IMG/VR virus record: IMGVR_UViG_3300025127_008281
Location: 2,997 to 66,996 of that record
DNA length: 64,000 nt
Strand: one strand, 5' to 3'
Source of the DNA: a virus
The notes beneath the pieces are model-generated. The model saw nothing but the letters and a program-made list of their open reading frames with translations. It was not told the origin of the DNA and made no database searches. Made by a program: the position numbers and the translations under genes. Shown in pieces: positions 3,790-64,000 of the stretch. Numbering within the stretch: position 1 is the first letter of the stretch; every line of letters begins with the position of its first letter.

Positions 3790-3800
3790 AAATTTTTTCC

Positions 3801-16423: not shown

Positions 16424-16576
16424 TTAGTTTAAATTATTATATTGTTTACAGAGATGGACATAAACTTTTGTCCAGTATTTTTTAAACCATGGATCTTCTG
16501 CAGAAGTCATCATTTGAAAAGCATTATTCAATAATCTTTTTTTGCTTGGTAAAAATTGTTTTGCTAAAGGTGTCAT
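16424..16576 (-). CDS. Small hypothetical protein (50 aa, not in ORF track)
   Basis: MTPLAKQFLP...DPWFKKYW; 4-nt overlap with the upstream gene's stop. Confidence 0.55.
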   Translation of the reverse strand: MTPLAKQFLPSKKRLLNNAFQMMTSAEDPWFKKYWTKVYVHLCKQYNNLN

Positions 16577-20260: not shown

Positions 20261-20314
20261 ATATTTTAATTTAGCACAAGATTGACAAAAGGTCAAGTCT
20301 ATGCTTAAATATGA

Positions 20315-20612: not shown

Positions 20613-20622
20613 ATAACTAAAT

Positions 20623-23490: not shown

Positions 23491-24591
23491 TTAAAGTTTA
23501 AATTTACTGAATTGGCCTTTTTTGACATCTTGTTTGATGCCACCAACAATGTACGACTCTACTTCTGTCTCCTGTGGAGCCACCTGCATACCTTTGCTAG
23601 ACAGCCAGTGCTGTGTCCATGGAAGTGGATTTTGTGATGCTGGTACGTCATACAATGGATCAAAGCCCAATGCTCTTAATCGTTTGTTCGCCGTCCATTC
23701 AACATATGAACCTAGCAATCTTTCGTTGAGTCCGATTATTGATCCATCTTTGAACAAATGTTTTGCCCATGCTTTTTCTTCTTCAACACAATCTTTGAAC
23801 ATTTGTATGACAGTTTTTTCAGTTCCTTTTATTGCTTTTGTCATCTCGGGATCATCACCTTTGTACCATGCTTTCAACACATGTGTTGATAAATTAAGAT
23901 GAGTTGCCTCGTCTCTTGCAATTAAAGAAAGAATTTTTGCAGAACCTTCCATAAGTTTTAGTTCACCAAATGCAAATGTACAAGCAAATGAAATGTAAAA
24001 ACGCAAACCTTCTAGTAAATTTACTGTCATCATCGCAAGATACAATTGCCTTTTCAAATCTATTATCTCGCCTTTGCCCTTTACAAAATAGTCTTCTGCC
24101 ATCTTACCAAACTTGTCATACTCGCCTGTGACCGATTTTGCTCTTTTCAATATTTCTTTATCATTCAAAATTGTGTCAAACACTTCACTTGGATCAGGGT
24201 AAACATTCTTCATGATATGTGTGTAGGAACGTGAATGTATTGCTTCAAAAAAATCCCAAGTTACAATGCAACCTTCAAGTTCTGGATTTGAAACATATGG
24301 CAAGAACATAAGGCTCGGTCCTCTGCCTTGCACACTGTCCAACAGTGTTTGATATTTTAAGTTAGATGTGAATATGTGTTTTTGCTCTGGTCTGAAAGTT
24401 TGAAAGTCTGCTCTATCTTTTTGTAAAGACACCTCTTCCGGTCTCCAAAAGTAACCTATCATTGTTTGATTCAGCTTGTCAAATTGAGGATATTTGAAAG
24501 TGTCATATCTTTGCACACCACCATCTTCACCAAAAAACATTGGTTGTTTAGTGAAATCGATATCCTTCTGGTTAAAAACAGTCTTACTCAT
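23491..24591 (-). CDS. nrdB: Ribonucleotide reductase class Ia beta subunit
   Basis: FWRPEEV, EAIHSRSY, LEGLRFY.SFACTF, RDEATH, QVAPQETE. Confidence 0.97.
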   Translation of the reverse strand: MSKTVFNQKDIDFTKQPMFFGEDGGVQRYDTFKYPQFDKLNQTMIGYFWRPEEVSLQKDRADFQTFRPEQKHIFTSNLKYQTLLDSVQGRGPSLMFLPYVSNPELEGCIVTWDFFEAIHSRSYTHIMKNVYPDPSEVFDTILNDKEILKRAKSVTGEYDKFGKMAEDYFVKGKGEIIDLKRQLYLAMMTVNLLEGLRFYISFACTFAFGELKLMEGSAKILSLIARDEATHLNLSTHVLKAWYKGDDPEMTKAIKGTEKTVIQMFKDCVEEEKAWAKHLFKDGSIIGLNERLLGSYVEWTANKRLRALGFDPLYDVPASQNPLPWTQHWLSSKGMQVAPQETEVESYIVGGIKQDVKKGQFSKFKL

Positions 24592-24606
24592 AATTTATAA
24601 TTTTTG

Positions 24607-27036
24607 TTAAATTGTACAGGCTTCACACTCACCTTCTTCGCCCGCGGTTGTACTTATCTTCTGAGATCCATTTACCCCATTTACGTATGTTGGATTTTCA
24701 GGCTCTAGTATCACGTCCTCTCCTTCATCCTCTTGGGCAGTGCTTATGCCAGCCGGTTGAAGATCTTCTTCTTCTCCTTTGAAGTCATAAGTGTTTTGGT
24801 AATAAGATGTTTTCCAACCAAACTTGTAAGTTGTTAACATATCTTGTGCCATTTCTGATAATGGTACCTCATTGTTTTCAAATTTTAATGGGTTATAACT
24901 CCAATTTCCTGATATTGCTTGATCGAAATATTTCTGCATCATGGCAACTACATTAATATAACCTTCGTTGCTAGGCATGTCCCAAAGCAGTGTGTAATCA
25001 TTCTTTAATTTAGGAAAGCCTGGAACTATCTGTTTTAGTGGCCCTTTTTTGGATTTTTTAATCGAAAGCAGTGCTCTTGGAGGTTCTATGCCATTTGTTT
25101 CGTTGCTGACAACCGAAGAACTTTCAGACGGCATTTGTGCTGATAATGTTGAATGTCTTAATCCATTTTTGGCAATATCTTTCCTTAGACTCTCCCATGC
25201 CATTCTTTGTTTGTGTGGCACTATTTCGTCTATCTCTTTTTTGTAATGATCGATAGGTAATTGTCCATCAGCATATTTTGTTCTATCAAACATTTCACAT
25301 TTGCCTTTTTCTTCAGCAAGATTACAACTTGCTCTCAACAAATTGTATTGGAACGCTTCGGATAATCTATCAACTAACTCCCAGGCCTTTGGATCTGAAT
25401 ACTTAACACCGTTCTTGGCAAGATAATGTGCAAGTCCGATATAACCTATTCCTAAACTCCTTCTTTTCTTTGTGCTTACCTCAGCCGCCTTCACAGGATA
25501 ATCTTGATAATCTATGATTTGATCCAGTGCTCTCACACTGAGGTCACATAAATTTTCCAACTCGTTCAAATCTTTTAGGCCACCCACGTTTATTGCCGAC
25601 AAAATACATAGTGCTATTTCACCGTTGTCGTCGTCTATGTGCTGTATGGGTGTTGTTGGCAATGTGATCTCTTGGCAAAGGTTTGACATTGACACTTTGT
25701 CTTTGAATGAACTATGAGAATTCGCGTGGTCTATATTCATGATATAGATACGACCAGTTTCAGCTCTTTCTTTAAGCAAATCAAAAAACAAGTCTTGTGC
25801 TGGCACAGTTTTTTTTGGAATTGTTTTGTCTTGCTCGTATTTTAAATACAAGTCATCAAACTCTTCTGTGCCAAATGCTTCGTATAATCCTGGTGCCATG
25901 TGTGGAGATATCAAGCTGATATCTTCTTCGTTCATAAATCTTTCATAAAACAGTTTTGATATTTGTACAGAATAATCCATCCGTCTCACTCTGTTGTCCT
26001 CTGTGCCTTTGTTGTTTTTTAGAACCAGTATGTCTTCGATCTCAGGATGCCATATAGGAAAGTGTACGGTTGCATTTCCACCACGCACACCATTCTGTGT
26101 ACAACATCTCACAGTTGATTCGAATTTTTTAAGGAACGGAATGACTCCTGTGTGTTGGACCTCCCCTCCCCTTATTTTAGAATTTATACCTCTGATACGG
26201 CCTGCGTTTATTCCTATGCCTGCTCTTCTGGCAACATACAAACCTATTGCCATATCACTTGAAAAGATACTTGGCAAAGTGTCATCGCTGTCTACAAGAA
26301 CGCAAGAAGCAAATTGTCTTATGGGTGTTCTTACTCCTGCCATAACCGGCGTTGGAATATTAATTTTGTGTTGTGAGATTGCATCGTAGTATTTTTTTAC
26401 ATAAGACATTCTTGATTTTGTTGGATAGTCTGCAAACAAAGTTGCCGCAATCATCATGTACATGTCCTGCGGAGTTTCATACAACTGTCCTGTGCTTCTG
26501 TCCTGCACAAGATATTTGTCTACAATTTGCCTCAATCCTGCATATGTGAAATTCAAGTCTCTATCTCTTCTTATCCATGTGTTGAATCTTTTTATATCAC
26601 TGGTTGTGTACTTGTCCACTATCCCTTTGTCATACACACCCAGACGGATATTTCTTAAAACTAATTTTAATAATGGAATGTATTCATATTGACCGTGTGC
26701 TTCTTTTCTGACATCATATGACAAAAGTCTTGCCGCGGCATATTGATAATTTGGAGCTTCTAAACTTATTAAATCATTTGCAGATCTTACTAAAACATTT
26801 TGGATGTCCTTAGTCGTCATGCCATCATAGAACTGAATGTTGGCATTCATCTCGATCTGAGACGAAGACACGCCGGAGAGTCCTTCGCAGGCCTCTTCGA
26901 CTACGAAATGAATTTTATTAATATCTAGGGGTTCTAGCCTGCCATCTCTTTTTTGAACTTTGATTGTACTAGAGTTGGTGTTCGGCATTATTACTTTTTT
27001 ATTTTTTGTTTTGATTGTCTTTGTTTGTGTATCCAT
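24607..27036 (-). CDS. nrdA: Ribonucleotide reductase class Ia alpha subunit with ATP cone
   Basis: VQKRDG ATP cone, QFASCV, SNLCQE, MPSESSS, KTSYY, C-terminal CEAC. Confidence 0.97.
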   Translation of the reverse strand: MDTQTKTIKTKNKKVIMPNTNSSTIKVQKRDGRLEPLDINKIHFVVEEACEGLSGVSSSQIEMNANIQFYDGMTTKDIQNVLVRSANDLISLEAPNYQYAAARLLSYDVRKEAHGQYEYIPLLKLVLRNIRLGVYDKGIVDKYTTSDIKRFNTWIRRDRDLNFTYAGLRQIVDKYLVQDRSTGQLYETPQDMYMMIAATLFADYPTKSRMSYVKKYYDAISQHKINIPTPVMAGVRTPIRQFASCVLVDSDDTLPSIFSSDMAIGLYVARRAGIGINAGRIRGINSKIRGGEVQHTGVIPFLKKFESTVRCCTQNGVRGGNATVHFPIWHPEIEDILVLKNNKGTEDNRVRRMDYSVQISKLFYERFMNEEDISLISPHMAPGLYEAFGTEEFDDLYLKYEQDKTIPKKTVPAQDLFFDLLKERAETGRIYIMNIDHANSHSSFKDKVSMSNLCQEITLPTTPIQHIDDDNGEIALCILSAINVGGLKDLNELENLCDLSVRALDQIIDYQDYPVKAAEVSTKKRRSLGIGYIGLAHYLAKNGVKYSDPKAWELVDRLSEAFQYNLLRASCNLAEEKGKCEMFDRTKYADGQLPIDHYKKEIDEIVPHKQRMAWESLRKDIAKNGLRHSTLSAQMPSESSSVVSNETNGIEPPRALLSIKKSKKGPLKQIVPGFPKLKNDYTLLWDMPSNEGYINVVAMMQKYFDQAISGNWSYNPLKFENNEVPLSEMAQDMLTTYKFGWKTSYYQNTYDFKGEEEDLQPAGISTAQEDEGEDVILEPENPTYVNGVNGSQKISTTAGEEGECEACTI

Positions 27037-27174
27037 ATTTATCTAAAAGTTAGTTTATTAAGTTTTTCCAAAATTTTTTCACCTGTCATAATAGCAAAAC
27101 TAGGTTGTCGTTTTGCGTTTTTATTTTATGCTAATATTACGATAAAAAAGTTTTTTTGTCTACGGATTTAATTA

Positions 27175-39100: not shown

Positions 39101-39229
39101 TTATTTTGAGTCTTTATCTAAGCACTCTTTACAATCACAGATATCACAGGTTCCGCAATTTGTACAAGCTTCTTTGCAGTGCGGTAAACATGCACATCTA
39201 AAACATTTATTTTTTCTTTGCTCTGTCAT
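39101..39229 (-). CDS. Cys-rich metallothionein-like peptide (42 aa, not in ORF track)
   Basis: MTEQRKNKCFRCACLPHCKEACTNCGTCDICDCKECLDKDSK; 10 Cys. Confidence 0.65.
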   Translation of the reverse strand: MTEQRKNKCFRCACLPHCKEACTNCGTCDICDCKECLDKDSK

Positions 39230-54604: not shown

Positions 54605-55627
54605 TTAGTTAATATCAAAAACTTTCTTTATCTTATCTTGACTAAGGCTTTTAAAAACTTCATAATTGTTTTCGAGTATTTTCTGCATTTCATCAGACCA
54701 ATACATATCTATCAAAACATCTAGATCCATTTTATGAATTATATCTATTTGTTTTTGCATCATGTGAATCCTATCCACATTATCATACTTGTCATAACTT
54801 TCGTTCCAGAATTTTCCAAAGGTCTGAAAGCCCAGCCTACGGATGTTTGTTAGATAGTTCTTTGGCCCAAAGACTAAAAATGGAGTTTTGGTTAGCCAAC
54901 ACCTTGCACTTTTTTCTGTGAAAGCAAAAGTCTGCCCGTTATGAACAGTCTCACAAACTACATCACAAAAGAATTTATTATACCAAGATGCCAAGTCGTA
55001 CGCCTCTGTAAAATTTATATACCCAGTGTTCGTGTTATCTTGTTTGTCATCGCTTTTCAAATGTATGGGCAATGCTTTGATAAACTCAGATACCTGATCA
55101 ATGAATTTAGAATCTATACCTTTCTGCATGTGATTTTTATACAGTTCATCCAGATACAGATAACACGGCTGTTTTGTATCTTTGAGATTCTGCCAGTATG
55201 TTATTAGAGAGTCATCCTTATAGTTGGCATGTATGTAACTGGCAAGTGATAACCTTGGCCACCTACTACCTCCAACCAGTATTGCTGTTTTGTAAACAAT
55301 TTTTTTGTCAGATCTAAAAGCAATATCTTGTCCGTGAAATACATCCACACTGCGGTAACATCGTTTAATGTTTGGCCAGCAATCTGACTGCACAAGGTTC
55401 TCAATTTCAATTAATATTTTGTTGTGCGGATATGCAAATTTGTCACAGAGTCTTTTCAATAAGTCGAGAAAGGGTTCTTTTCCCAACATTACATAGGCAA
55501 GATCTGGAGACTCGTCTATGAAAAGGAATGTGTCTTTATTGTTTGAAATACAGTCGACCACATGTGTCAAGGTTGCAGAAACATTTTGCACTTTGTCATT
55601 ATGCACTACAACATTGAATCTATCCAT
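54605..55627 (-). CDS. Glycosyltransferase-like protein (TEK / GFQTF..ESYD family)
   Basis: VVCET...FTEK...GFQTFGKFWNESYD. Confidence 0.55.
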   Translation of the reverse strand: MDRFNVVVHNDKVQNVSATLTHVVDCISNNKDTFLFIDESPDLAYVMLGKEPFLDLLKRLCDKFAYPHNKILIEIENLVQSDCWPNIKRCYRSVDVFHGQDIAFRSDKKIVYKTAILVGGSRWPRLSLASYIHANYKDDSLITYWQNLKDTKQPCYLYLDELYKNHMQKGIDSKFIDQVSEFIKALPIHLKSDDKQDNTNTGYINFTEAYDLASWYNKFFCDVVCETVHNGQTFAFTEKSARCWLTKTPFLVFGPKNYLTNIRRLGFQTFGKFWNESYDKYDNVDRIHMMQKQIDIIHKMDLDVLIDMYWSDEMQKILENNYEVFKSLSQDKIKKVFDIN

Positions 55628-55982: not shown

Positions 55983-56073
55983 TTATCAGTTTATCAGTTC
56001 CTTAAGCCTAAGCATCAGCATACTTTAAGCATAAGCATTAGTTAAGATATGTTTAAGCATCAGCACATCAGCA
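55983..56073. repeat. Cluster of short direct repeats
   Basis: TTATCAGT x2, TAAGCATCAGCA at 56009 and 56054, TAAGCAT at 56026 and 56032, CATCAGCA at 56066. Confidence 0.7.
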
Positions 56074-56087
56074 CGGTAAATATCGTT

Positions 56088-56612
56088 ATGAAGATCACGG
56101 AACTTTTGAATACGCCAAAAAAATCACATGATACTACATCTAGTGGCACTATATATAGTATCGAGTCGGAACCCCAGGCACAAGATATAGTATCACAAGA
56201 CCATGTGCCACAAAAAATCGTGGCGGAGCAGGTTGACGGCAGGATTTTGGAGATGCCGGATCATTCGGCCATCGCGGAAGGAGTCAGCCAAATCTTCAGA
56301 AGGCAGAAAGGTGGAAGGCCCACCAAAGGATTCAGATGCACCTCAGGCCCTCGGAAAGGCCGTATAGTTGCCAAGCCAAGCACCTGTTTCCAGAAGACTG
56401 ATCCTGTTCGTTCTGCCAAGATCAGAAAGAAGAGACAGCAGAAGGCAAGGATAGCCGGCAAGAAATTGGCACAGACCAAAAGGTCGGGAGCAGGCGCAAG
56501 GAGACTGGCAGGAGTTCAGATCAAGAAAAGAAAAGGCACTCAACCCAAGCTGGGTGGAGCAAGGACAGGCTCAAGGCCATTGATGAAATCCAGAACGGTC
56601 AAGGCTAGATAG
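56088..56612 (+). CDS. Basic late protein
   Basis: MKITELL start 5 nt after TAAATA; FRCTSGPRKGRIVAKPSTC; K/R-rich tail. Confidence 0.75.
   Translation: MKITELLNTPKKSHDTTSSGTIYSIESEPQAQDIVSQDHVPQKIVAEQVDGRILEMPDHSAIAEGVSQIFRRQKGGRPTKGFRCTSGPRKGRIVAKPSTCFQKTDPVRSAKIRKKRQQKARIAGKKLAQTKRSGAGARRLAGVQIKKRKGTQPKLGGARTGSRPLMKSRTVKAR
56131..56208. promoter_or_regulatory. Four NrdR-box-like palindromes inside a CDS
   Basis: atactacatctagtgg (56131), gcactatatatagtat (56146), gcacaagatatagtat (56178), tcacaagaccatgtgc (56193, weak); 56146 to 56178 is 32 bp. Confidence 0.6.
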
Positions 56613-57777
56613 AATCAAAATAGTCTTTTAATTTTTTCCAAAGATCAAACTTGTGTCTTCCTATCTTTGATAGTAGGATTTTTTGGTTGTGTTCACATAT
56701 ATCTCTAGATTGATCATAGAATTGTTTGGCATTGGTCATATCCAATTTGGATAGCAGGTCGGCAATGGCTTCGGCCCTTTGCTGATGTCCACTCAGTCTA
56801 TCATAAGATTCGTCAATAAGGCTATTAAATGTTTTAAATCCAATGCGTCTTAGATTCTCGAGATAATGCTTATTGCCTACAACCACAAAAGGATGTTTCA
56901 TAAGTATTGGTTTACAAATTTTTTCAGTCACATAGAAACTATCATCATTATCTTGTCCTCCATAGGTTTCACACACCACCTCAAAGCAGGATTTTTTATA
57001 ATAATCCAACATCGGCACCTGGCACGACCTACCGCCAATCGAATCCAACCACTTTGATGGAAAATAGTCATAGGGGTCCTGATGAACAGGTTGCCCGTCG
57101 TGTCCCCCGGTTGTTCTGATGAATGCTTGATCAATGAATGGGCGATCCTTGATGGCATCATAGAATGATTGTCTATGCTCTCTCCCAGTTTCATGAAATC
57201 TTATCAAACTGAAAAAAGTATGTCGAGGATCGTGACCGGTCTGCAGATGATAAATGTGTGATGTCCAGAAAAATCTTTCGAACCAATGGCTGGTCTCCAC
57301 AAATCTCCAGTTGGGAAATCTCTTTTTGAAATAATTTCCAGCTGATCCGTTTATGAAAATATCTAGTTGAAGTTTTTGGATGGCATCGAAATGTTTTGGG
57401 CCAAACCCATCAAATCTTATACCATAGTGATCCTTTGAATCATGTTCAAATTTATACTTTACGGCCTTAAGACTATATTGGAAATTGAACAATGGATCTT
57501 CACTTGAATTGATGATCACTTTGATTTTATTAGTCTGACACATCTGCCTGAAGTTGGTATGTGGTGAACTTTCAACCATTAATCTTTCCAGTGTTTTCCA
57601 TTTGATTATCAACAAAATTGGCTCTTCTCCAGAGGCCTTATGTCTTATCACATTAATCAACGGCTCGGTTACAGACAGATCAAGTCTCTGAAAATCAATT
57701 TGACAGACATCCAGGTATTCACTCAACATATCCTTGACATCAAAATCGACAATTATTTGGTATTTCTGGTCAATCAT
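56605..57777 (-). CDS. Glycosyltransferase-like protein (TEK..KP / GFKTF..DESYD family)
   Basis: VVCET...VTEKICKPI...GFKTFNSLIDESYD. Confidence 0.55.
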   Translation of the reverse strand: MIDQKYQIIVDFDVKDMLSEYLDVCQIDFQRLDLSVTEPLINVIRHKASGEEPILLIIKWKTLERLMVESSPHTNFRQMCQTNKIKVIINSSEDPLFNFQYSLKAVKYKFEHDSKDHYGIRFDGFGPKHFDAIQKLQLDIFINGSAGNYFKKRFPNWRFVETSHWFERFFWTSHIYHLQTGHDPRHTFFSLIRFHETGREHRQSFYDAIKDRPFIDQAFIRTTGGHDGQPVHQDPYDYFPSKWLDSIGGRSCQVPMLDYYKKSCFEVVCETYGGQDNDDSFYVTEKICKPILMKHPFVVVGNKHYLENLRRIGFKTFNSLIDESYDRLSGHQQRAEAIADLLSKLDMTNAKQFYDQSRDICEHNQKILLSKIGRHKFDLWKKLKDYFDSI

Positions 57778-57794
57778 TATAGGAAAAATACTTA

Positions 57795-57842
57795 CCGCTA
57801 GATCTTGTAGTTGATCTCATGACCTGGCACTAGATCCTGTAG
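57795..57842. promoter_or_regulatory. Tandem NrdR-box-like pair
   Basis: ccgctagatcttgtag (57795) and gcactagatcctgtag (57827), 32 bp apart. Confidence 0.6.
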
Positions 57843-57909
57843 GCAAAAAAGTCGCAAGATCATTGGCTTTTTTGGTCGGCTTTATATATAGGCTTTTTTT
57901 GGCTCGAGG

Positions 57910-57937
57910 TTGACGGGTATAGGTTCCATGTTAATAT
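57910..57937 (+). promoter_or_regulatory. Sigma70-type early promoter
   Basis: TTGACG-16 bp-TAATAT with TG extension, then AAAGGAGTTGAA leader. Confidence 0.7.
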
Positions 57938-57968
57938 GAATTATGAACAAAGGAGTTGAAAAAATATT

Positions 57969-58226
57969 ATGATAAGTGGATTACAGACAAAAGACATCGA
58001 GCAGATCTATGATGAGATGACAGATGCCTATACCAAAGGTGACTACCTCGAAGGCGTCACACAATGGGGAGATGATGCTTTGATGTCACCTAAAACATTC
58101 GCCGAAAGATTCCATAATGTATGTTTAGGATTTGGATATCGTGAGGCAGAGATAATTCCTGCCAAGCTGGAGATTGAAGATTGGTGCCGAGAGCATCTAC
58201 TTCATCTAGAAAGTAAGTTCAGATGA
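57969..58226 (+). CDS. Early hypothetical protein
   Basis: First gene after the promoter and RBS. Confidence 0.7.
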   Translation: MISGLQTKDIEQIYDEMTDAYTKGDYLEGVTQWGDDALMSPKTFAERFHNVCLGFGYREAEIIPAKLEIEDWCREHLLHLESKFR

Positions 58227-58320
58227 AACAAATGATAGAGAAGTTTAATGTATGGTCTTTGTATTACAGAACCGAGATTGTATATTTTATAGGTGGATTT
58301 ATCATCGGAGCAATATTGAT

Positions 58321-58446
58321 ATGAAAAATAAAAAATACAAATTAACAAAAAAGGATTGGTTGATCCTATTAGACTTTTGGCCATTGTCAATAATGACACC
58401 GGTCATGTTGATTCTGATATTGTTAGGGCCAATTATAATGCAATGA
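58321..58446 (+). CDS. Small membrane protein
   Basis: MKNKKYKL...DFWPLSIMTPVMLILILLGP; start inferred. Confidence 0.5.
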   Translation: MKNKKYKLTKKDWLILLDFWPLSIMTPVMLILILLGPIIMQ

Positions 58447-58655
58447 TCATAGAAGGAATATTCGGATTAATTTTATCTTTTTCCGCTGGTGGTGACAAGA
58501 CAGCAGGAGATCCTGCAGGCATGGTCTTGAAAGGCATTCTACAAGGAAACAAGATAATCCAAAAAGAAAAGAACAAAGAAATGGATGACAGCATCCATGA
58601 AGAATTACACATCATGACTAAAGATTATATCTACAAATTGGGAGGACTAAAATGA
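58443..58655 (+). CDS. Hypothetical protein
   Basis: MIIEGIFGLIL start via ATGA overlap (inferred). Confidence 0.55.
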   Translation: MIIEGIFGLILSFSAGGDKTAGDPAGMVLKGILQGNKIIQKEKNKEMDDSIHEELHIMTKDYIYKLGGLK

Positions 58656-58888
58656 CAATAAACGAAACACATAAACATCATTTCCAGGTGGCCGACATCG
58701 GTGCTTGGGATTTGGATGAAGACAGAAGTATTGTACCGAGCATCCAAAATTCACTCAAAGCATCGGGCATCACAGCCGTTGTAGATGCCGACGAGATGAA
58801 CTCGGCAGGATTCACGGTCTACACCTATTCTCCGAGAGAAGTGGTTGAAAAAGCATTGGAAGATGATGGCATTGATCTCGAGGACTAA
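58652..58888 (+). CDS. Acidic hypothetical protein
   Basis: GGAGG RBS. Confidence 0.7.
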   Translation: MTINETHKHHFQVADIGAWDLDEDRSIVPSIQNSLKASGITAVVDADEMNSAGFTVYTYSPREVVEKALEDDGIDLED

Positions 58889-58919
58889 TAAGCCAATGAA
58901 TATGCGACTTTTTAGGCGG

Positions 58920-58947
58920 TTGACGGTATTACCATCCATGTTATACT
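58920..58947 (+). promoter_or_regulatory. Sigma70-type early promoter
   Basis: TTGACG-gtattaccatccatgt-TATACT; spacer identical to the 62547 promoter. Confidence 0.82.
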
Positions 58948-58971
58948 GAATTATTAACAAAAGGAGTTGAA

Positions 58972-59268
58972 ATGAATAAAAAACTACAAAAAATACTATC
59001 AGACATATACTATATGGATGGTACAGAGTTATCGGCCGTGATAGATGCCGTTAAGTTAAGAAGAAATCAAATACATAGCTCAGATGCCCATAAGTTTAGA
59101 TTCGGCGATAAGGTTTCGTTCCAAGGTAGAAGAAATTCTATTTTGAAAGGTACCGTCGAAAAAGTGAAAATCAAATATGTATTGGTAAGAACTGACAGCG
59201 GAACTAGATGGAATGTTCCTGGTTCTCATCTTACATTGATCCAATCCAAGGAGGCCGTTGATGCCTAA
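58972..59268 (+). CDS. Early protein with SH3-like C-terminal domain
   Basis: GDKVSF...GTVEKVKIKYVLV...RWNVP. Confidence 0.6.
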   Translation: MNKKLQKILSDIYYMDGTELSAVIDAVKLRRNQIHSSDAHKFRFGDKVSFQGRRNSILKGTVEKVKIKYVLVRTDSGTRWNVPGSHLTLIQSKEAVDA

Positions 59269-59932
59269 TTGGTGCGATAACCAAATTACTATCACGGGGC
59301 CGAATTCCGTGATAGAAAAGATAGAAAAGATCGTTAAAGATGAAAGTAATAATGTAGAAAAAGGATTATTACAATTCTTCCATCCAATGCCTAAGGAGTT
59401 GATGGAGACAGAGGCAGGTCCGATAGCGAAAACTAAAAAAGAAAAACAGGCCAGACAGGCAAGGAAGTTGGAGTTCGGCGCAGAAAATTGGTACGATTGG
59501 CGAGTGAACAATTGGGGAACCAAGTGGGAGTTGTGTGAATTCTACGGCGTAGACAGACAATATCTCTCAGAACAGAGCGAGGGAGAGTCTACAATATCGT
59601 TTTCATTCAGTTCGGCCTGGGCACCACCGATTGGTGCTTATGAGAAGTTCTTGGAGAATAATTCGGATTGTTTCATTAGGGCTTATTATTACGAAGGCGG
59701 ATGTGACTTTATGGGATTATGGGAAGATGGAGTAGACGATTGTTATACTCCAAGCGATTACAAATCCACAGATGACTTTTGGCAGGACGGCATAGGTTCA
59801 ACCCTAGATGATGTTTTCAACATCACGGAGTCAATGGCAGAGTACGAAGCTGAACAGGAAGAAGAAAGACTGAACGAGGATGTCTACAAGTATTCCAAAG
59901 GCGAGAAGATCAACATAGGGGAGGATGCCTAA
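59261..59932 (+). CDS. Api92/DUF1281-like ferredoxin-fold protein
   Basis: MPNWCDN, WYDWRVNNWGTKW, F.SAWAPP, YYE.GCDF.G. Confidence 0.8.
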   Translation: MPNWCDNQITITGPNSVIEKIEKIVKDESNNVEKGLLQFFHPMPKELMETEAGPIAKTKKEKQARQARKLEFGAENWYDWRVNNWGTKWELCEFYGVDRQYLSEQSEGESTISFSFSSAWAPPIGAYEKFLENNSDCFIRAYYYEGGCDFMGLWEDGVDDCYTPSDYKSTDDFWQDGIGSTLDDVFNITESMAEYEAEQEEERLNEDVYKYSKGEKINIGEDA

Positions 59933-60135
59933 TGCCTAAATTTTTAATTAAGGTCAAACACGGAATAACGACAGGTACCAGCACCAAGACAGCAACGGTG
60001 GAGGCCAATGACAAAGACCATGCCTACAGGATGCTGATGGCAGACGGCAATGTTGGTCCTTTTATGGATTGGGAAGAAGACTTTGATGTGGAGTATGACA
60101 CATCACCCCAATATTATATAAAGGAGACCGTATAA
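59932..60135 (+). CDS. Early hypothetical protein
   Basis: GGAGG RBS, TAATG overlap. Confidence 0.65.
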   Translation: MPKFLIKVKHGITTGTSTKTATVEANDKDHAYRMLMADGNVGPFMDWEEDFDVEYDTSPQYYIKETV

Positions 60136-60377
60136 TGTGGACAGATGAATTGTTTGACGAGATACAGAAAGGCGATCGTGTGTGGTATGAAACAGCACAG
60201 GGTCAGACCAGATCAGGTAAGGCATTGATGATTGGCCCAATGGGTTGGGTCTTGGACACAGGGGCAGGTGAGCCAAAGGTAGTGAACGAGGGATACAATT
60301 ATCTAGGTCACAAGCCTGCCAAGGACAGGGAGCCAGATCACCTGGGTCATTTCCTCAATAAGCATATTGGAGACTGA
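60135..60377 (+). CDS. Early hypothetical protein
   Basis: AAGGAG RBS, TAATG overlap. Confidence 0.7.
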   Translation: MWTDELFDEIQKGDRVWYETAQGQTRSGKALMIGPMGWVLDTGAGEPKVVNEGYNYLGHKPAKDREPDHLGHFLNKHIGD

Positions 60378-60394
60378 TGAAAGATAATTTTTTG

Positions 60395-60441
60395 GCACTA
60401 TATCTAGTATCGATCAGAAGTTGTGGCACTAGATATTGTGG
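60395..60441. promoter_or_regulatory. Tandem NrdR-box-like pair
   Basis: gcactatatctagtat (60395) and gcactagatattgtgg (60426), 31 bp apart. Confidence 0.75.
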
Positions 60442-60452
60442 TTTTTGGCAGG

Positions 60453-60480
60453 TTGACGCTTTTACCACCTATGCTATTAT
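60453..60480 (+). promoter_or_regulatory. Sigma70-type early promoter
   Basis: TTGACG-16 bp-TATTAT with TG extension; AAGGAGTTGAAA leader. Confidence 0.75.
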
Positions 60481-60504
60481 TAAGAATAAATGAAGGAGTT
60501 GAAA

Positions 60505-60882
60505 ATGCAAAAAATAGACTATACAAAAAAACATGGAATCATGGTTGGATACATAGATAGATCCGATAATGTGGTTGCCGTGGAAACAAGTTGGAATATA
60601 AGTTATACGGCGATGGCCCAGATACTTCGAGACAAATATCCAACTAAAGAAGATGCCATCAAGGCGGTTGATTCACCTGCATTGGTACCAAGTTTTAGAA
60701 AAGATGACTATTGGTATGTTGATGGATTTGGTGATGTGATTGAATCTAATATATCGTGGCACAAGGAAGTGATGAGAAAACATATCGGTCATTTATTCTT
60801 GTTCATGAAAGGTACTTGGCAATATTCAGACAATGGTATTGACTGGGAACCAATTTCCGAAATATTGAAGGAGGTGGCATAA
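60505..60882 (+). CDS. Early hypothetical protein
   Basis: Start MQKIDY after AAGGAG. Confidence 0.7.
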   Translation: MQKIDYTKKHGIMVGYIDRSDNVVAVETSWNISYTAMAQILRDKYPTKEDAIKAVDSPALVPSFRKDDYWYVDGFGDVIESNISWHKEVMRKHIGHLFLFMKGTWQYSDNGIDWEPISEILKEVA

Positions 60883-61184
60883 TGTCAAGATCGGGTGATA
60901 AGATGAGATACAATATAAAAGATTATCTCACAGAAAAAGAAGTGAACAAATTAATGGATTTGTTCAACAAGATAAAGTTGGACCTATCAGATGATAGTTT
61001 TCCAACAAGAACAAACAGACTAGAGGCTGTTGAAAACATGAAGAAGGTTTTGGAGATCCACAATTATGTGGTGTCCGAATATGAGCCTGAGGGAGAGGAT
61101 AACGAGATCAAGATGCCTTTTCCAGATGCTAGGGATCAACATCTTATCAACAAGAACTTTAACAAGGCAACGGGAGGAAAATAA
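60882..61184 (+). CDS. Early hypothetical protein
   Basis: GGAGG RBS, TAATG overlap. Confidence 0.7.
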   Translation: MSRSGDKMRYNIKDYLTEKEVNKLMDLFNKIKLDLSDDSFPTRTNRLEAVENMKKVLEIHNYVVSEYEPEGEDNEIKMPFPDARDQHLINKNFNKATGGK

Positions 61185-61735
61185 TGGCCACTAGAGCGAG
61201 GATAGGTATAAAACAGAAGAGCGGAAGAATAATTGCTTCATATCAACATTGGGACGGTTATCCAGGAGGACTTGGGTACAACCTATGTGAAAATTGGGAA
61301 GACTCAAAGAAGGTCACAGAAGCAATCAAATTGGGTGACTCATCCAAATGGCATTACATCGTGGGTGAACAGATAGACTTTGATGACAGGTCTAATCCGA
61401 TGTATGAGGTGCAGAATTGCTATTATGGCCGAGACCGAGGTGAGAAGGGTGTTGGCTACAAGGTCTACAAGGACGAAGCAGAATACATCCGAGAGGGTTT
61501 CAACTCGGGCGAACAATATGTGTACCTAATGAAAGATGCAGGCGAGACAAATTTCTTAGGCAAACCTAAATTGACTTGGTTCTATGTTGAAAGCAGATAC
61601 ACAGAAAATGGCAAGGAGGTCTTTGACAAGGAGTTCAAACCTTTGGAGAGATATGCCATACTTGAACGGATCGACATCTTGAAGAGACAGATTGAAATGA
61701 TGGATGAATCAGAGAAAAGAAAGAAGGTGGCCTAG
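61184..61735 (+). CDS. Conserved phage early protein (YxHWDGYP type)
   Basis: MATRARIG, YQHWDGYP..LG, YGRDRGE, EQYVYL. Confidence 0.75.
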   Translation: MATRARIGIKQKSGRIIASYQHWDGYPGGLGYNLCENWEDSKKVTEAIKLGDSSKWHYIVGEQIDFDDRSNPMYEVQNCYYGRDRGEKGVGYKVYKDEAEYIREGFNSGEQYVYLMKDAGETNFLGKPKLTWFYVESRYTENGKEVFDKEFKPLERYAILERIDILKRQIEMMDESEKRKKVA

Positions 61736-61974
61736 TGTCGGTACATATCAGATATAGATTCCTAAAGGAGAAGGGTGACTACCTCAAAGATGAGGCGATG
61801 ACTCGTGGATACACTTTGGTTGAAACAAATATCGAACATCCTTTCCATCAAGTTTTGAAAGAATTCTACAAGGACTTCAAAGGCAGAGCAGTTCAAATTT
61901 TTAATATTTGGAGAACGCCCGTGGGCGAAGCCAATTATAGAATGGAAGAAGAAGAGAGGAGAATAAATGGGTAA
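61735..61974 (+). CDS. Early hypothetical protein
   Basis: GTG start overlapping the upstream stop. Confidence 0.6.
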   Translation: MSVHIRYRFLKEKGDYLKDEAMTRGYTLVETNIEHPFHQVLKEFYKDFKGRAVQIFNIWRTPVGEANYRMEEEERRING

Positions 61975-62197
61975 TCATTTGAGAAACATCAGGGCCTTGT
62001 TCGAGAACGCCAAAGAATTTGATGTCAGCAGGAAGATAGACACCTACGAATATGAATCGTTGGAAAAAATGATACTGGATGACAATATCAGATATTCAGA
62101 GATTATGGAGATCTTCACAGACTCCGAATACCGAGAATGGTTCTACAAAAGGAACTTTGAAGGCAAGGAGTTCAACATCACAAAATTTCATGAATGA
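61967..62197 (+). CDS. Early hypothetical protein
   Basis: AGGAG RBS. Confidence 0.7.
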   Translation: MGNHLRNIRALFENAKEFDVSRKIDTYEYESLEKMILDDNIRYSEIMEIFTDSEYREWFYKRNFEGKEFNITKFHE

Positions 62198-62397
62198 TGC
62201 CTAGAAAGAAATATTACTTTGATCTAAATGACCTCAAGGCCGGATATCCAAATGCCATGGTGGCAGAGTACGGCCTGGCAGGAGACGAAGTGTATGTATG
62301 GGCCGATAATGGATTCGCGGCGGAGACCGTGGCGTTGGAAGAATACAAAAAAGGAAGGTGGAAAACAAGCAAAGATGGTGGAAAAAATAAGAAATAG
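62194..62397 (+). CDS. Early hypothetical protein
   Basis: ATGA overlap. Confidence 0.6.
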   Translation: MMPRKKYYFDLNDLKAGYPNAMVAEYGLAGDEVYVWADNGFAAETVALEEYKKGRWKTSKDGGKNKK

Positions 62398-62489
62398 CAT
62401 CCTGGTTGAATTCAGTTTCTGTGGTGCTGTCATTTTGGTATTGGATCTTGTTGGCGTGATAGTCTAACAAAATTGGAATTTTTTGGATG

Positions 62490-62536
62490 GCACTAGATAT
62501 AGTGCCAGAAAGAAAGGTCGATACTAGATATAGTGC
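62490..62536. promoter_or_regulatory. Tandem NrdR-box-like pair
   Basis: gcactagatatagtgc (62490) and atactagatatagtgc (62521), 31 bp apart. Confidence 0.8.
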
Positions 62537-62546
62537 CATTCTGAGG

Positions 62547-62574
62547 TTGACCGTATTACCATCCATGTTATACT
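62547..62574 (+). promoter_or_regulatory. Sigma70-type early promoter
   Basis: TTGACC-gtattaccatccatgt-TATACT; AAAGGAGTTGAAATG leader. Confidence 0.82.
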
Positions 62575-62596
62575 GAATTATTACAAAGGAGTTGAA

Positions 62597-62977
62597 ATGT
62601 TAGAAGAAAACAAAGATCTATTGAAGTTTAATGCAGAAGGCGTTCATCCAGCAGATATGTTCTTGAATGCTAAAGACAAGGCTGTGAAGGCTGTGGATGA
62701 ATTTGTGAAAGAATACGGTGAGCCGTTATATTGCGGTTTCGCCAATGTATCGATTCATCCTGCAAGAGGCAGATTGGTATCTTTTTTAAAAAAAGCAGGA
62801 ATAGGTGATAATGGTTATAGAGGTGGTTATAGAATATCTTATTATGACATTATGCCTAAAGACCATCCTCATAGCCATACTCAGTCGATGAGCATTAAAG
62901 AAGAAGCCTGTGAGGCGTTCAGAGATGAACTAAGAAAATATGGTTTGACTGTTTATGCGGAAAGCAGAGCCGACTAA
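62597..62977 (+). CDS. Early hypothetical protein
   Basis: CGFA.V...QSMSIKE.ACEAF...L...G....ESRAD. Confidence 0.75.
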   Translation: MLEENKDLLKFNAEGVHPADMFLNAKDKAVKAVDEFVKEYGEPLYCGFANVSIHPARGRLVSFLKKAGIGDNGYRGGYRISYYDIMPKDHPHSHTQSMSIKEEACEAFRDELRKYGLTVYAESRAD

Positions 62978-63564
62978 TGCAAGGGACATTGGAATTCGTT
63001 TTACAATCAGCGAGGGCGGTCATGGCCTCCCTTGCTATGTCCTATGAAGTGGAGACAGGCACAAGTGTGAACGAGGCAGAATTGAAATGTATGGCGGAGA
63101 ACATCTACTTTGAAGGCAGAGCGGAACCGATGGTTGGGAAGATAGCGATAGGCCATGTGGTGATGAACAGAATTGAAGATGAGAGATTTCCAGATACGAT
63201 ATGTGGAGTGGTGCATCAAGGCCCTGTTAGGGAAAGTTGGAAGACAAGACAGCACAAGGATCTTGCCGACGAAGACAGAATTTATTATCCAATTAAGAAC
63301 AGATGCCAATTCAGTTGGTGGTGTGATGGACAGAAAGATATTATTTGGGCCACATACATGAATGGTGAAGTGATAGAATCTAATATGACAGCATGGAGAG
63401 ATTCCATCCATGTCGCCCTGTTTATTATGAGCGGTGATTACTCCATGGATCCAACAGACGGCGCTGTCTTCTACTACAATCCACACATCGCGAATCCTAG
63501 TTGGGGGAGATTGTATAAGGAGACGGCTATGATAGGTAACCACAGATTCATGAAGGACAAATAA
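62977..63564 (+). CDS. Cell wall hydrolase (SleB/Hydrolase_2 family)
   Basis: CMAENIYFEGRAEP, VVMNR, FPDTICGVV.Q, CQFSW.CDG, DPTDGA.FY, IGNHRF. Confidence 0.92.
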   Translation: MQGTLEFVLQSARAVMASLAMSYEVETGTSVNEAELKCMAENIYFEGRAEPMVGKIAIGHVVMNRIEDERFPDTICGVVHQGPVRESWKTRQHKDLADEDRIYYPIKNRCQFSWWCDGQKDIIWATYMNGEVIESNMTAWRDSIHVALFIMSGDYSMDPTDGAVFYYNPHIANPSWGRLYKETAMIGNHRFMKDK

Positions 63565-63860
63565 TGAGAGCAAGTCTAAAAAAAGCATTGGCAGAATATA
63601 ACCTATACCTCAAGCGATTAGGCATAGACAAGATAAAGAAAAGAAAGGCCAGAGGAACCTTTGTCTTTGATGGTGGTGGTAATAGAAATGGTGTGCCCAC
63701 CGGAGACAAGATACCAGTGTTCACAGGTGGTAAAAGACAGGCGTTCACATACTCCGGCGAACGAAAGTTGATTGGTATTGGAATGCTTCATAAGAGCAAT
63801 CTTGTACCGGTTTGGGACGAGCAAGATGCCAAAGAAATAAGCAAGATGAGGAGAGGTTGA
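63564..63860 (+). CDS. Hypothetical protein, paralog of 8290..8676
   Basis: YSGERKLIGIGMLHKSNLVPV. Confidence 0.8.
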   Translation: MRASLKKALAEYNLYLKRLGIDKIKKRKARGTFVFDGGGNRNGVPTGDKIPVFTGGKRQAFTYSGERKLIGIGMLHKSNLVPVWDEQDAKEISKMRRG

Positions 63861-63889
63861 CAGCATTTGGAAAGGTGTTATTTTAAGTT

Positions 63890-64000
63890 ATGAAACAAGT
63901 TAAATGGGAAATAGAATTAAATGTGCCAAAAGGCAAAATCAAGACTTTTGTTTATTCGGAGGATGGAACTAATATTGTAGATAGATTCAAACCAGAATAT
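63890..64000 (+). CDS. Hypothetical protein (runs off window)
   Basis: MKQVKWEIELNVP... after a TTGACA promoter-like sequence at 63857. Confidence 0.5.
   Translation, partial: MKQVKWEIELNVPKGKIKTFVYSEDGTNIVDRFKPEY

What the first reader, a model, noticed from the sequence alone, without database searches (positions are those of the whole stretch)
56131..62536. Array of tandem NrdR-box pairs in the early region, far from the phage's own nrdAB
Seen: about ten copies of a 16-bp imperfect palindrome (best copy gCACTAGATATAGTGc) at 56131, 56146, 56178, 56193, 57795, 57827, 60395, 60426, 62490 and 62521. They form pairs spaced 32, 32, 31 and 31 bp. Two pairs end 10-11 bp upstream of the -35 of early promoters. 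I see no such box upstream of nrdA (27037-27175) and no nrdR gene in this window. Established: the NrdR box consensus is acaCwAtATaTwGtgt, and NrdR, a dATP/ATP-sensing repressor of ribonucleotide reductase genes, binds tandem boxes about three helical turns (31-32 bp) apart. Inference, model (a): the boxes are DNA decoys that titrate host NrdR and derepress host dNTP synthesis early in infection. Model (b): the phage uses host NrdR as a nucleotide sensor that gates early operons in starved cells. Either would be a DNA-level host-regulator hijack that I do not know to be described.
Basis: partly seen in the sequence, partly recalled or inferred. Interest (0 to 1): 0.88.

Follow-up and report, generated by a model that had tools for sequence, protein, structure and literature searches.

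The report
NrdR operator pairs at phage early promoters
A group of abundant marine T4-like phages carries several copies of the DNA site normally used by the bacterial repressor NrdR to control nucleotide synthesis, placed next to some of its own early promoters, which suggests the phage reads or disturbs the host's DNA-precursor sensor.

Summary
Ten 16-bp boxes lie at the stated coordinates and form four pairs spaced 32, 32, 31 and 31 bp. The window has three strict pairs, against a mean of 0.018 in 500 simulations.

The boxes meet every sequence-level criterion for NrdR operators. They carry the six conserved positions C4, A6, A8, T9, T11 and G13. Their linkers are 15-16 bp and differ between pairs.

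The boxes are conserved at the same places in 26 related viral contigs. In 12 of 19 downstream pairs, box 2 ends 10-11 bp before a TTGAC -35 element. None of seven partial records of this phage group encodes nrdR. All five candidate host-lineage genomes (HIMB59/SAR11-like) do, with similar boxes at their nrdA promoters.

Hairpin and promoter-terminator cassette explanations failed covariation tests.

My reading is that these are host NrdR operators. They most likely make a subset of sigma70 early promoters, and one late gene, responsive to the dATP/ATP ratio. Titration of NrdR is a non-exclusive alternative. Binding is not shown, and the sign of regulation is unknown.

I found no published description. 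I rate it a new variant of a known kind, host transcription-factor sites in lytic phages. Interest 0.75.

The parts
56131..56146 (.). Box a of the intragenic cluster (+43 from the ATG at 56088), ATACTACATCTAGTGG
   Evidence: PWM 15.7 although not used for training. Has 6 of 6 conserved positions. A box stands at +43 in 22 of 26 relatives.
56146..56161 (.). Box b (+58); forms the canonical 32-bp pair with box c
   Evidence: PWM 22.2. Part of a strict pair. Present in 25 of 26 relatives.
56178..56193 (.). Box c (+90)
   Evidence: PWM 20.7. Present in 26 of 26 relatives. The nucleotides are conserved against G001 while the linker between the boxes diverges.
56193..56208 (.). Box d (+105), degenerate in this genome
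   Evidence: PWM 5.4 and 4 of 6 conserved positions. Scores 11 or more at this place in 16 of 26 relatives. It lies in a 30-bp stretch absent from G001.
56088..56612 (+). Conserved basic 174-aa protein gene that carries boxes a-d in its 5' part; TAAATA lies 5 nt before the ATG
   Evidence: No Pfam or PHROG match. Homologues at 60-82% identity in 26 viral contigs. The TAAATA-ATG arrangement is conserved in G001.
57795..57810 (.). Box 1 of pair B
   Evidence: PWM 11.6 although not used for training; 6 of 6 conserved positions. Orthologous boxes in G001.
57827..57842 (.). Box 2 of pair B, 32 bp after box 1. It ends 67 bp before the -35 at 57910. Box 1 starts 18 bp from the ATG of the minus-strand gene 56605-57777.
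   Evidence: PWM 14.4 and 5 of 6 conserved positions. Pairs in the same position in relatives lie 64-90 bp before a TTGAC.
60395..60410 (.). Box 1 of pair C
   Evidence: PWM 22.3. Part of a strict pair.
60426..60441 (.). Box 2 of pair C, 31 bp after box 1; ends 11 bp before the -35 element
   Evidence: The same 11-bp gap occurs in 5 pairs in relatives.
60453..60480 (+). Sigma70-type early promoter, TTGACG-16-TATTAT with TG extension. It drives genes 60490-62397, all of unknown function.
   Evidence: no informative family matches.
62490..62505 (.). Box 1 of pair D, the best box: GCACTAGATATAGTGC
   Evidence: 0 mismatches; PWM 25.7.
62521..62536 (.). Box 2 of pair D, 31 bp after box 1; ends 10 bp before the -35 element
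   Evidence: The orthologous pair in G001 has the same 10-bp gap. Seven pairs in relatives have a 10-bp gap.
62547..62574 (+). Sigma70-type early promoter, TTGACC-16-TATACT with TG extension. It drives 62597-62977 (126 aa, phrog_22149), 62977-63564 (SleB-type cell-wall hydrolase) and 63564-63860.
   Evidence: In G001 the orthologous operon continues into an ATP-dependent DNA ligase.
57910..57937 (+). Early promoter with no adjacent pair (pair B lies 67 bp upstream)
58920..58947 (+). Early promoter without boxes, an internal contrast
63857..63884 (+). Early promoter without boxes, an internal contrast
23491..27036 (-). Phage nrdB and nrdA (class Ia, with ATP-cone), which have no NrdR box upstream
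   Evidence: Pfam matches. Upstream sequence read. The best PWM score nearby is 7.8, inside the ORF.

Best explanation
The boxes are genuine NrdR operators, bound by the host's own NrdR. [quoted passage not shown]

A clade of marine T4-like myophages, probably infecting HIMB59/SAR11-like Alphaproteobacteria, has placed tandem operators at three kinds of site:
- 10-11 bp upstream of the -35 element of a subset of its sigma70 early promoters;
- 64-90 bp upstream of the first early promoter;
- at +43 to +120 inside a late basic-protein gene.

Inferred consequence: while dATP is high, NrdR sits on these sites, bends the DNA sharply and holds those transcription units down. When phage DNA synthesis draws dATP down, NrdR leaves and the units fire. 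Ordinary early promoters thus become units coupled to dNTP status or to replication. Early promoters without boxes, and the phage's own nrdAB, escape this control.

What is shown: motif identity, geometry, conservation, nrdR in candidate hosts, and absence of nrdR from the phage DNA held.

What is inferred: binding, repression rather than activation, and the timing logic.
For: Motif. Eight of 10 boxes carry all six positions reported as highly conserved in NrdR boxes: C4, A6, A8, T9, T11, G13 (passages of PMC13584703). In 87 distinct boxes from the clade, 67 have 6 of 6, and A3, C4, A6, A8, T9, T11, G13 and T14 are each at 91% or more.

Spacing. All four pairs have 15-16 bp linkers. This is the optimum measured for four NrdR proteins; other spacers bind about 100-fold worse, apart from 24-27 bp (PMC12051234).

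Chance. Three strict pairs against 0.018 expected.

Conservation.
- The syntenic relative G001 keeps the boxes while linkers and flanks diverge.
- In 26 relatives the intragenic boxes stand at +58 and +90 in 25 and 26 loci.
- There are 57 boxes in 122 kb downstream of the gene against 5 in 245 kb upstream.
- Twelve of 19 downstream pairs end 10-11 bp before a TTGAC.
- Nine of 10 loci with at least 5 kb of downstream sequence have such a pair.

Source of the regulator.
- No NrdR (TIGR00244, or tblastn with a host-lineage NrdR) in seven partial clade records, nor in the unrelated, 99%-complete phage G002, which has its own cluster of boxes.
- Only 18 of 50,697 phage records hold an NrdR homologue, and none is a marine T4-like phage.

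Host side.
- The phage cytochrome b gene is closest to genomes labelled Fonsibacter and HIMB59-type.
- Five of those 5 genomes encode NrdR, 4 above the curated cut-off. The two that I translated (of these five) have D15 and R17.
- Four of 4 nrdA genes found there have a similar box within about 60 bp upstream.

Positive control. In IMG/VR, a strict tandem site sits 13 bp upstream of a phage nrdD gene with an ATP-cone.
Against: - No binding or expression experiment exists.
- Known NrdR operators overlap the RNA polymerase site or lie just downstream of it (PMC9110341 abstract; PMC12176259 passages). Here most pairs lie upstream of the -35 element, roughly -45 to -92 by my estimate, so repression is not the only possible outcome.
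- NrdR is described as apparently specific for ribonucleotide reductase genes (PMC12051234 introduction). No RNR gene follows any pair, and the downstream genes are of unknown function.
- The host is not identified, only inferred from one gene.
- The clade records are 12-39% complete by CheckV, so a phage nrdR could lie in the unseen part.
- In two of the four host nrdA promoters I found only one box.
- The PWM was trained on the phage's own boxes, which inflates clade-wide similarity.
Confidence: 0.62

Rival explanations
1. Decoy or titration is the main function. The tandem operators are there to soak up host NrdR, so that the host nrdAB operon is derepressed as phage genomes multiply. Any effect on the adjacent phage promoters would be secondary. 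This does not exclude the gating model.
For: - One phage genome brings three strict and one or two relaxed tandem sites.
- The five candidate host genomes have 0-2 strict sites each. Their nrdA operator is not among these: its upstream box has only 5 of 6 conserved positions.
- The intragenic cluster at 56131-56208 has no early promoter beside it, yet is the most conserved part, present in 25-26 of 26 loci.
- The phage's own nrdAB lacks boxes.
- Upregulation of NrdR-site operons during a lytic infection is reported for a pneumococcal phage (PMC6755750, abstract and figure legend).
Against: - Decoys need no fixed register with promoters, yet 12 of 19 downstream pairs end exactly 10-11 bp before a -35 element.
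- NrdR leaves DNA anyway when dATP falls, so replication alone should derepress host RNR (mechanism in PMC9110341).
- NrdR copy number in these hosts is unknown.
Confidence: 0.17
2. The boxes are bound by a phage-encoded protein. This could be a phage NrdR copy in the unsequenced part of the genome, or an unrelated regulator or virion protein such as the basic 174-aa protein whose gene carries the cluster.
For: - The records are 12-39% complete.
- Proteins annotated as NrdR are listed for some podoviruses in a table of PMC8790148.
- The box cluster lies inside a conserved basic protein gene of unknown function.
Against: - No NrdR-like sequence in seven clade records.
- No NrdR-like Zn-ribbon among short ORFs in G000 or G001.
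- NrdR homologues occur in only 18 of 50,697 phage records, and none is a marine T4-like phage.
- The same motif with the same 31-33 or 42 bp spacing occurs in unrelated viral contigs and at host nrdA promoters. This fits a universal host factor better than a clade-specific one.
- G002 is 99% complete, has boxes and has no nrdR.
Confidence: 0.13
3. The palindromes act as nucleic-acid structures or recombination cassettes, not protein sites. They would be terminator or stabiliser hairpins between early units, or the stem-loop part of the PeSL-type promoter-terminator cassettes that shuffle genes in T4-like phages.
For: - The pairs sit between early transcription units, directly before early promoters.
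- Contigs from RNA libraries of related phages join one promoter cassette to another: 57958>60503, 58958>60503, 60514>62601. This is the PeSL-style shuffling pattern (PMC2839356 and PMC4122927; search listing, passages of the latter).
Against: - Within boxes, positions 7/10 are complementary in only 19 of 87 distinct boxes, and positions 5/12 in 32 of 87.
- Between the two boxes of a pair, the variable positions are complementary in 67 of 164 cells. That is below the partner-shuffled mean of 86.7, and 2000 of 2000 shuffles reach the observed value.
- PeSL stem-loops are described as G/C-type stems with a loop, not 16-bp A/T-rich palindromes.
- The scan called no terminator at the pairs.
- The cluster inside a coding sequence does not fit a terminator.
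Confidence: 0.04

Closest known systems
NrdR operators of bacterial ribonucleotide reductase operons (Rodionov and Gelfand 2005, as cited in PMC12051234; PMC9110341; PMC12176259; PMC13584703)
   Same: - 16-bp partly palindromic boxes with C4, A6, A8, T9, T11 and G13.
- Two boxes with a 15-16 bp linker that is not conserved.
- A promoter-proximal position.
   Different: - No RNR gene follows any pair.
- Most pairs lie upstream of the -35 element at a fixed 10-11 bp, rather than over the polymerase site.
- There are several pairs per 6.4 kb.
- One cluster of three to four boxes in 15/32/15 register lies inside a coding sequence.
- The sites are carried by a lytic phage whose own nrdAB lacks them.
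CtrA binding sites in phages of Alphaproteobacteria (PMC9437464; title and abstract seen)
   Same: Operators for a host-encoded global regulator are conserved in phage genomes, so that phage gene expression follows a host physiological state.
   Different: - CtrA reports the cell cycle and NrdR reports the dATP/ATP ratio.
- That paper proposes deferment of lysis. Here a subset of early promoters is affected.
- I did not read the paper beyond the listing.
PhoB/Pho-box control of cyanophage genes (PMC10976474; abstract seen); NtcA sites in cyanophages and LexA sites in temperate phages (both recalled, from no call)
   Same: A marine T4-like phage uses a host nutrient-status regulator at its own promoters.
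   Different: In those cases the regulated genes are auxiliary metabolic genes of the same pathway, such as pstS and phoA. Here the regulated genes are early genes of unknown function, not nucleotide-reduction genes.
PeSL promoter-terminator cassettes of T4-like phages (PMC2839356, PMC4122927)
   Same: - Repeated cassettes built around near-consensus sigma70 early promoters in a hyperplastic early region.
- Recombination joints fall at the cassettes.
   Different: The upstream element is a tandem NrdR-type operator, not a G/C stem-loop, and it shows no pairing covariation.

Membership tests
NrdR operator (tandem NrdR boxes) | 16-bp partly palindromic box with the highly conserved positions C4, A6, A8, T9, T11, G13 | tested here: met
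   Eight of 10 window boxes have 6 of 6; box 57827 has 5 of 6 and box 56193 has 4 of 6 (sequences; criterion from PMC13584703). In the clade, 67 of 87 distinct boxes have 6 of 6, 18 have 5 and 2 have 4.
NrdR operator (tandem NrdR boxes) | Two boxes separated by a 15-16 bp linker, about three helical turns centre to centre | tested here: met
   Start-to-start distances are 32, 32, 31 and 31 bp in the window. All 19 pairs collected downstream in relatives are 31 or 32 bp apart, by the selection rule. Criterion from PMC12051234 and PMC13584703.
NrdR operator (tandem NrdR boxes) | Linker sequence not conserved | tested here: met
   The linkers of pairs C and D differ, while the boxes and the promoter align (alignment A1). 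The intragenic linker diverges between G000 and G001.
NrdR operator (tandem NrdR boxes) | Lies in the promoter region of a ribonucleotide reductase operon, overlapping or just downstream of the polymerase site | tested here: not met
   No RNR gene follows any pair. Pairs C and D lie upstream of the -35 element. The phage nrdAB has no box.
NrdR operator (tandem NrdR boxes) | An NrdR protein is available in the cell | tested here: inconclusive
   The host is not identified. The five genomes nearest to the phage cytochrome b gene all encode NrdR, 4 above the cut-off and 1 cut by a contig end. D15 and R17 are present in the two translated.
NrdR operator (tandem NrdR boxes) | Binding by NrdR that depends on dATP plus ATP or ADP | not testable with these tools
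   Needs EMSA or microscale thermophoresis.
Phage-encoded NrdR regulon | An nrdR gene in the phage genome | tested here: inconclusive
   Zero of 7 clade records match TIGR00244 at E <= 0.01. G000 and G001 also gave no match in a search with a host-lineage NrdR protein at E <= 10. All seven records are 12-39% complete.
PeSL promoter-terminator cassette | Near-consensus sigma70 early promoter, repeated in the hyperplastic region | tested here: met
   Five TG-extended TTGAC promoters at 57910, 58920, 60453, 62547 and 63857.
PeSL promoter-terminator cassette | A stem-loop (terminator-like) element directly upstream of the promoter | tested here: not met
   No terminator-like site at the pairs. No complementarity is maintained within boxes or between them.
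Host transcription-factor sites co-opted by lytic phages (CtrA, PhoB type) | Sites for a host regulator that are conserved across a phage clade and enriched in regulatory positions | tested here: met
   26 of 26 relatives keep the sites. There are 57 boxes in 122 kb of early region against 5 in 245 kb of late region. Twelve of 19 pairs stand in fixed register with a -35 element.

The most novel reading that the evidence does not exclude
NrdR is not only an RNR repressor. It may also be a dATP/ATP sensor that many phage lineages plug into.

In this marine T4-like clade it would turn sigma70 early promoters into delayed units coupled to replication. That would give a middle-mode switch without MotA/AsiA. 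The replicating operator array would at the same time strip NrdR off the host nrdAB promoter.

The tandem sites I saw next to portal, terminase and integrase genes in unrelated viral contigs, and the 2-kb box-rich non-coding region of the complete phage G002, would be further cases of the same strategy.
Probability: 0.25. Interest if true: 0.88.

Novelty: new variant of a known kind. Interest (0 to 1): 0.75.

Why it matters
NrdR is regarded as a nearly RNR-specific repressor. Operators for it on a lytic phage, at early promoters and inside a late gene but not at the phage's own nrdAB, would extend its regulon to viral development. They would also give a concrete way for a phage to sense, or manipulate, the host dNTP state.

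The phage group is common in the sea. The 8-kb region is held in part by 24 runs from 15 studies. Its likely hosts are streamlined oligotrophs, in which a few extra high-affinity operators could matter.

The hypothesis is cheap to test. NrdR proteins bind heterologous consensus boxes in vitro (a section heading on heterologous binding in PMC13584703; four NrdRs tested on synthetic boxes in PMC12051234). An EMSA and an E. coli reporter would therefore settle the first step.

Tried and rejected
Attempts that gave nothing useful:
- DNA similarity of 56001-64000 to 50,697 phage records gave no match.
- Protein searches with genes 62597-62977 and 56049-56612 against phage records gave one weak hit, in pelagiphage HTVC026P, and none.
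- Pfam, PHROGs and Atlas look-ups of the genes behind the regulated promoters gave no function. I therefore could not link them to nucleotide metabolism. The only link is an ATP-dependent DNA ligase further down the orthologous operon in G001.
- The strict-pair hits in host genomes were not at nrd genes. One lies at the end of an ORF before an MFS transporter gene. I treat these as unexplained or chance, and located the nrdA promoters directly instead.
- A search for NrdR-like Zn-ribbons among short ORFs found none. It found only an unrelated Cys-rich 42-aa ORF.

Metatranscriptome contigs. Records from four RNA-library runs of three studies lie on 57.7-64 kb, and none lies on 55001-55600. These are assembled contigs, DNA carry-over is possible, and most are only 90-95% alike. 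I do not count this as evidence of transcription or of regulation.

Limits of the 14-mer scan of IMG/VR.
- It includes chance matches.
- The nine 42-bp pairs counted are one sequence repeated on related contigs, eight of the nine from one metagenome.
- After removing duplicates there were 15 distinct pairs.

Considered and rejected:
- Chance.
- Hairpins or terminators.
- A fossil of captured host promoter DNA, which is contradicted by the multiplicity, the fixed register and the clade-wide conservation.

Literature limits.
The lists of about 60,000 NrdR motifs and the two-box HMM behind PMC13584703 and PMC9110341 could already contain viral or non-RNR sites, and I could not see them.
- Torrents et al. 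2007 and Rodionov and Gelfand 2005 were not held. What I say of them comes from citing papers or from recall.

Full report
WHAT THE DNA IS.
The window is bases 2997-66996 of a 66,996-bp IMG/VR record that CheckV rates 20% complete. Its NrdA is 69% identical to those of Pelagibacter phage Mosig and of cyanomyophages. The window holds class Ia nrdAB, ClpX, two TctA genes, a cytochrome b gene and radical-SAM enzymes.

From 56 kb onward it holds a run of small plus-strand genes behind near-consensus, TG-extended sigma70 promoters at 57910, 58920, 60453, 62547 and 63857. I read it as a fragment of a marine T4-like myophage. The region in question is its early, hyperplastic region.

THE OBSERVATION.
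- The 14-base core with up to three mismatches matches 17 times counting both strands, against 5.23 +/- 2.12 in shuffles. Thirteen of these lie in 56132-62535.
- A PWM trained on six boxes scores the four untrained boxes 15.7, 14.4, 11.6 and 5.4. Nothing else in the window scores above 11.0.
- The pairs are 32, 32, 31 and 31 bp apart.
- A strict pair pattern built only from the six positions that the literature calls highly conserved occurs three times. The mean is 0.018 in 500 Markov simulations; 9 of 500 had one and none had two.
- Box 2 of pairs C and D ends 11 and 10 bp before the -35 hexamer.
- No box precedes nrdA. No NrdR or second ATP-cone protein is encoded in the record.

Box 56193 is degenerate here, with 4 of 6 conserved positions.

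IS IT AN NrdR OPERATOR BY SEQUENCE?
Passages of PMC13584703 give the defining features. There are two partly palindromic 16-bp boxes with C4, A6, A8, T9, T11 and G13 highly conserved. C4 and G13 are critical. The linker is 15-16 bp and not conserved.

PMC12051234 shows that four NrdR proteins bind linkers of 14-17 or 24-27 bp, and bind other lengths about 100-fold worse.

Eight of the ten boxes have all six positions. All four linkers are 15-16 bp. The linkers of pairs C and D are unrelated, while the boxes and promoters align.

In 151 boxes (87 distinct) collected from the clade, A3, C4, A6, A8, T9, T11, G13 and T14 are each at 91% or more, and positions 5, 7, 10 and 12 vary. The PWM used to collect these boxes came from the phage itself, so this logo is not fully independent.

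CONSERVATION.
The exact-core scan of IMG/VR turned up a syntenic relative, G001 (92.9 kb, 39% complete, proteins 45-93% identical). It keeps the intragenic cluster, the pair after the basic-protein gene, and the pair in front of the homologue of gene 62597 with the same 10-bp gap. The surrounding non-coding DNA and the intragenic linker diverge.

A search with the basic protein found 26 related loci. Two of them, L232 and L233, are nearly the same sequence, and L233 is G001 itself.
- Boxes stand at +43, +58, +90 and +105 from the start codon in 22, 25, 26 and 16 of the 26 loci.
- Outside the gene there are 5 boxes in 245 kb on the late-gene side and 57 in 122 kb on the early side.
- Of 19 pairs downstream, 12 end 10 or 11 bp before a TTGAC. 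The others lie 21-90 bp away.
- Nine of 10 loci with at least 5 kb of downstream sequence have such a pair.
- Only 12 of 54 TTGACN-N15-18-TANNNT sites there have a pair, so a defined subset of early promoters is marked.

Three cultured relatives (Mosig and two cyanomyophages, 508 kb in all) have no strict pair. G000 and G001 have three each, and the reversed-pattern control gives none. The feature is therefore specific to this clade among the relatives sampled.

WHO BINDS?
No NrdR family match was found in seven clade records, which are all partial at 12-39%. None was found in G002 either. G002 is an unrelated, 99%-complete 72-kb phage with its own cluster of boxes in a 2.2-kb non-coding stretch. 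A host-lineage NrdR used as a tblastn query finds 18 of 50,697 phage records. Most of these are unannotated fragments and none is a marine T4-like phage.

The phage cytochrome b gene is nearest (64-71%) to contigs labelled Ca. Fonsibacter and HIMB59-type Alphaproteobacteria. ARAGORN also calls a permuted tmRNA in the window.

All five of those genomes encode NrdR; one copy is cut by a contig end. The two copies that I translated carry D15 and R17. These are the residues reported to read the conserved G-C pairs (PMC9110341).

Four of the five genomes have a class I nrdA. Each has a box within about 60 bp upstream, for example ACACTACATCTAGTGA. In two of them a weaker box with 5 of 6 positions lies 32 bp upstream, between TTGACT and TATAGT. 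In the other two I found no second box.

RIVALS TESTED.
Hairpins.
- Within boxes, positions 7/10 are complementary in 19 of 87 and positions 5/12 in 32 of 87.
- Between the boxes of a pair, the variable positions pair in 67 of 164 cells, below the partner-shuffled mean of 86.7.
- No terminator-like site is called at the pairs.

PeSL cassettes. These have G/C stem-loops, not such palindromes. The early promoters here do behave as recombination joints in related phages.

Phage-encoded regulator. This is not excluded. It fits poorly with the same motif and spacing turning up in unrelated viral contigs and at host nrdA promoters.

HOW IT PROBABLY WORKS (inference).
NrdR binds DNA only as the dATP plus ATP/ADP-loaded tetramer, and it kinks the DNA at each box (PMC9110341, PMC12176259). 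With box 2 ending 10-11 bp before the -35 element, the tetramer would cover roughly -45 to -92. That estimate assumes a start about 7 nt after the -10 element. The covered stretch includes the UP-element region.

I expect repression while dATP is high and release when phage replication lowers it. The marked early promoters would then fire in step with DNA synthesis. In G001 one such operon runs on into an ATP-dependent DNA ligase.

The intragenic cluster sits 43-120 bp into a gene with a T4-late-type TAAATA element before its ATG. There it could act as a roadblock, or simply as a high-affinity sink. Activation from the upstream position cannot be excluded.

Titration of NrdR by replicating phage DNA is a likely side effect and possibly a selected one. 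One phage genome carries more consensus pairs than the host genomes examined.

WIDER PICTURE (partly followed).
A strict two-box pattern with 22 specified bases found 68 stretches in IMG/VR. I examined the 62 outside this clade, which hold 49 distinct sites with 60 flanking ORFs. Among those ORFs:
- one is an NrdD with an ATP-cone, the classical arrangement and a useful positive control;
- five are Phage_portal proteins of about 377 aa, which are probably one phage family;
- one each is an SPP1-type portal, a TerL and an integrase;
- most of the rest have no Pfam family.

An earlier sample of 10 flanking proteins gave a portal, a TerL, an integrase and no RNR. NrdR-type tandem sites at non-RNR genes may therefore be widespread in phages.

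LITERATURE.
Searches for NrdR combined with phage, bacteriophage, cyanophage or phage genome returned no paper describing NrdR boxes at phage promoters. The nearest findings were:
- host NrdR-site operons induced during a pneumococcal phage infection (PMC6755750; abstract and legend);
- a table that lists NrdR-annotated proteins in podoviruses (PMC8790148).

The closest concept in print is CtrA sites in alphaproteobacterial phages (PMC9437464; listing and abstract only).

VERDICT.
- Identity as an NrdR operator is well supported at the sequence level.
- The function is inferred.
- It is a new variant of a known kind.

Noticed in passing
L122 (G002:C1) 2620-4880: An unrelated, 99%-complete 72-kb phage (GC 44%, no nrdR) has a 2.2-kb non-coding region packed with NrdR-type boxes at 2748/2780, 2851, 3080, 3438, 4257/4304, 4362 and 4452. 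It also holds other repeats (tcgtaaagtccgtaaa units, gacaggca...tttgtc), several beside TTGTCA/TTGACA promoter-like hexamers, just upstream of the portal gene.
   Followed up: partly
IMG/VR loci L257, L266, L281, L285, L295 (portal); L084 (TerL); L105 (integrase); L256 (nrdD): Strict tandem NrdR-type pairs occur directly upstream of portal, large terminase and integrase genes in viral contigs unrelated to this phage. Only one distinct site of 49 flanks an RNR gene (nrdD with an ATP-cone).
   Followed up: partly
window 57958, 58958, 60503, 60514, 62601: Contigs from RNA-library runs of related phages join one early promoter or ribosome-binding cassette directly to another (57958>60503, 58958>60503, 60514>62601). 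Gene blocks are therefore swapped or deleted between cassettes, as described for PeSL-mediated shuffling.
   Followed up: no
window 57870-57890 and L117 (G001) about 16560-16580, minus strand: A motif GTCGGCTTTATATATA is conserved between pair B and the first early promoter in G000, G001, L230 and L243. It may be a late-type or other promoter element.
   Followed up: no
window 39101-39229 (-) and G001 31400-31564 (+): A conserved 42-54 aa Cys-rich ORF (pattern CFRCACxPHCxxxCxNCxxCDxCDCxxC) is present in both phages.
   Followed up: no
window 56605-57777 (-): A 390-aa gene with no family match is inserted between the basic-protein gene and pair B in this genome. It is absent from G001 and several other relatives. 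Its ATG is 18 bp from box 57795, so its promoter must overlap the pair.
   Followed up: partly
window 20284-20653 (+): ARAGORN calls a permuted (two-piece) tmRNA with a tag ending in LAA. This fits an alphaproteobacterial host.
   Followed up: no
L127 (contig labelled Ca. Fonsibacter MAG, 9.9 kb): The best cytochrome b match (71%) lies on a short MAG contig. It may itself be a mis-binned phage fragment, which would weaken its use as a host marker.
   Followed up: no
L215 1498-1541 (G006) and L212 (G007): A strict box pair is conserved in two HIMB59-type genomes. It lies at the 3' end of an ORF, about 100 bp before an MFS transporter gene and not at an nrd gene. It could be a non-RNR NrdR target or chance.
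   Followed up: partly
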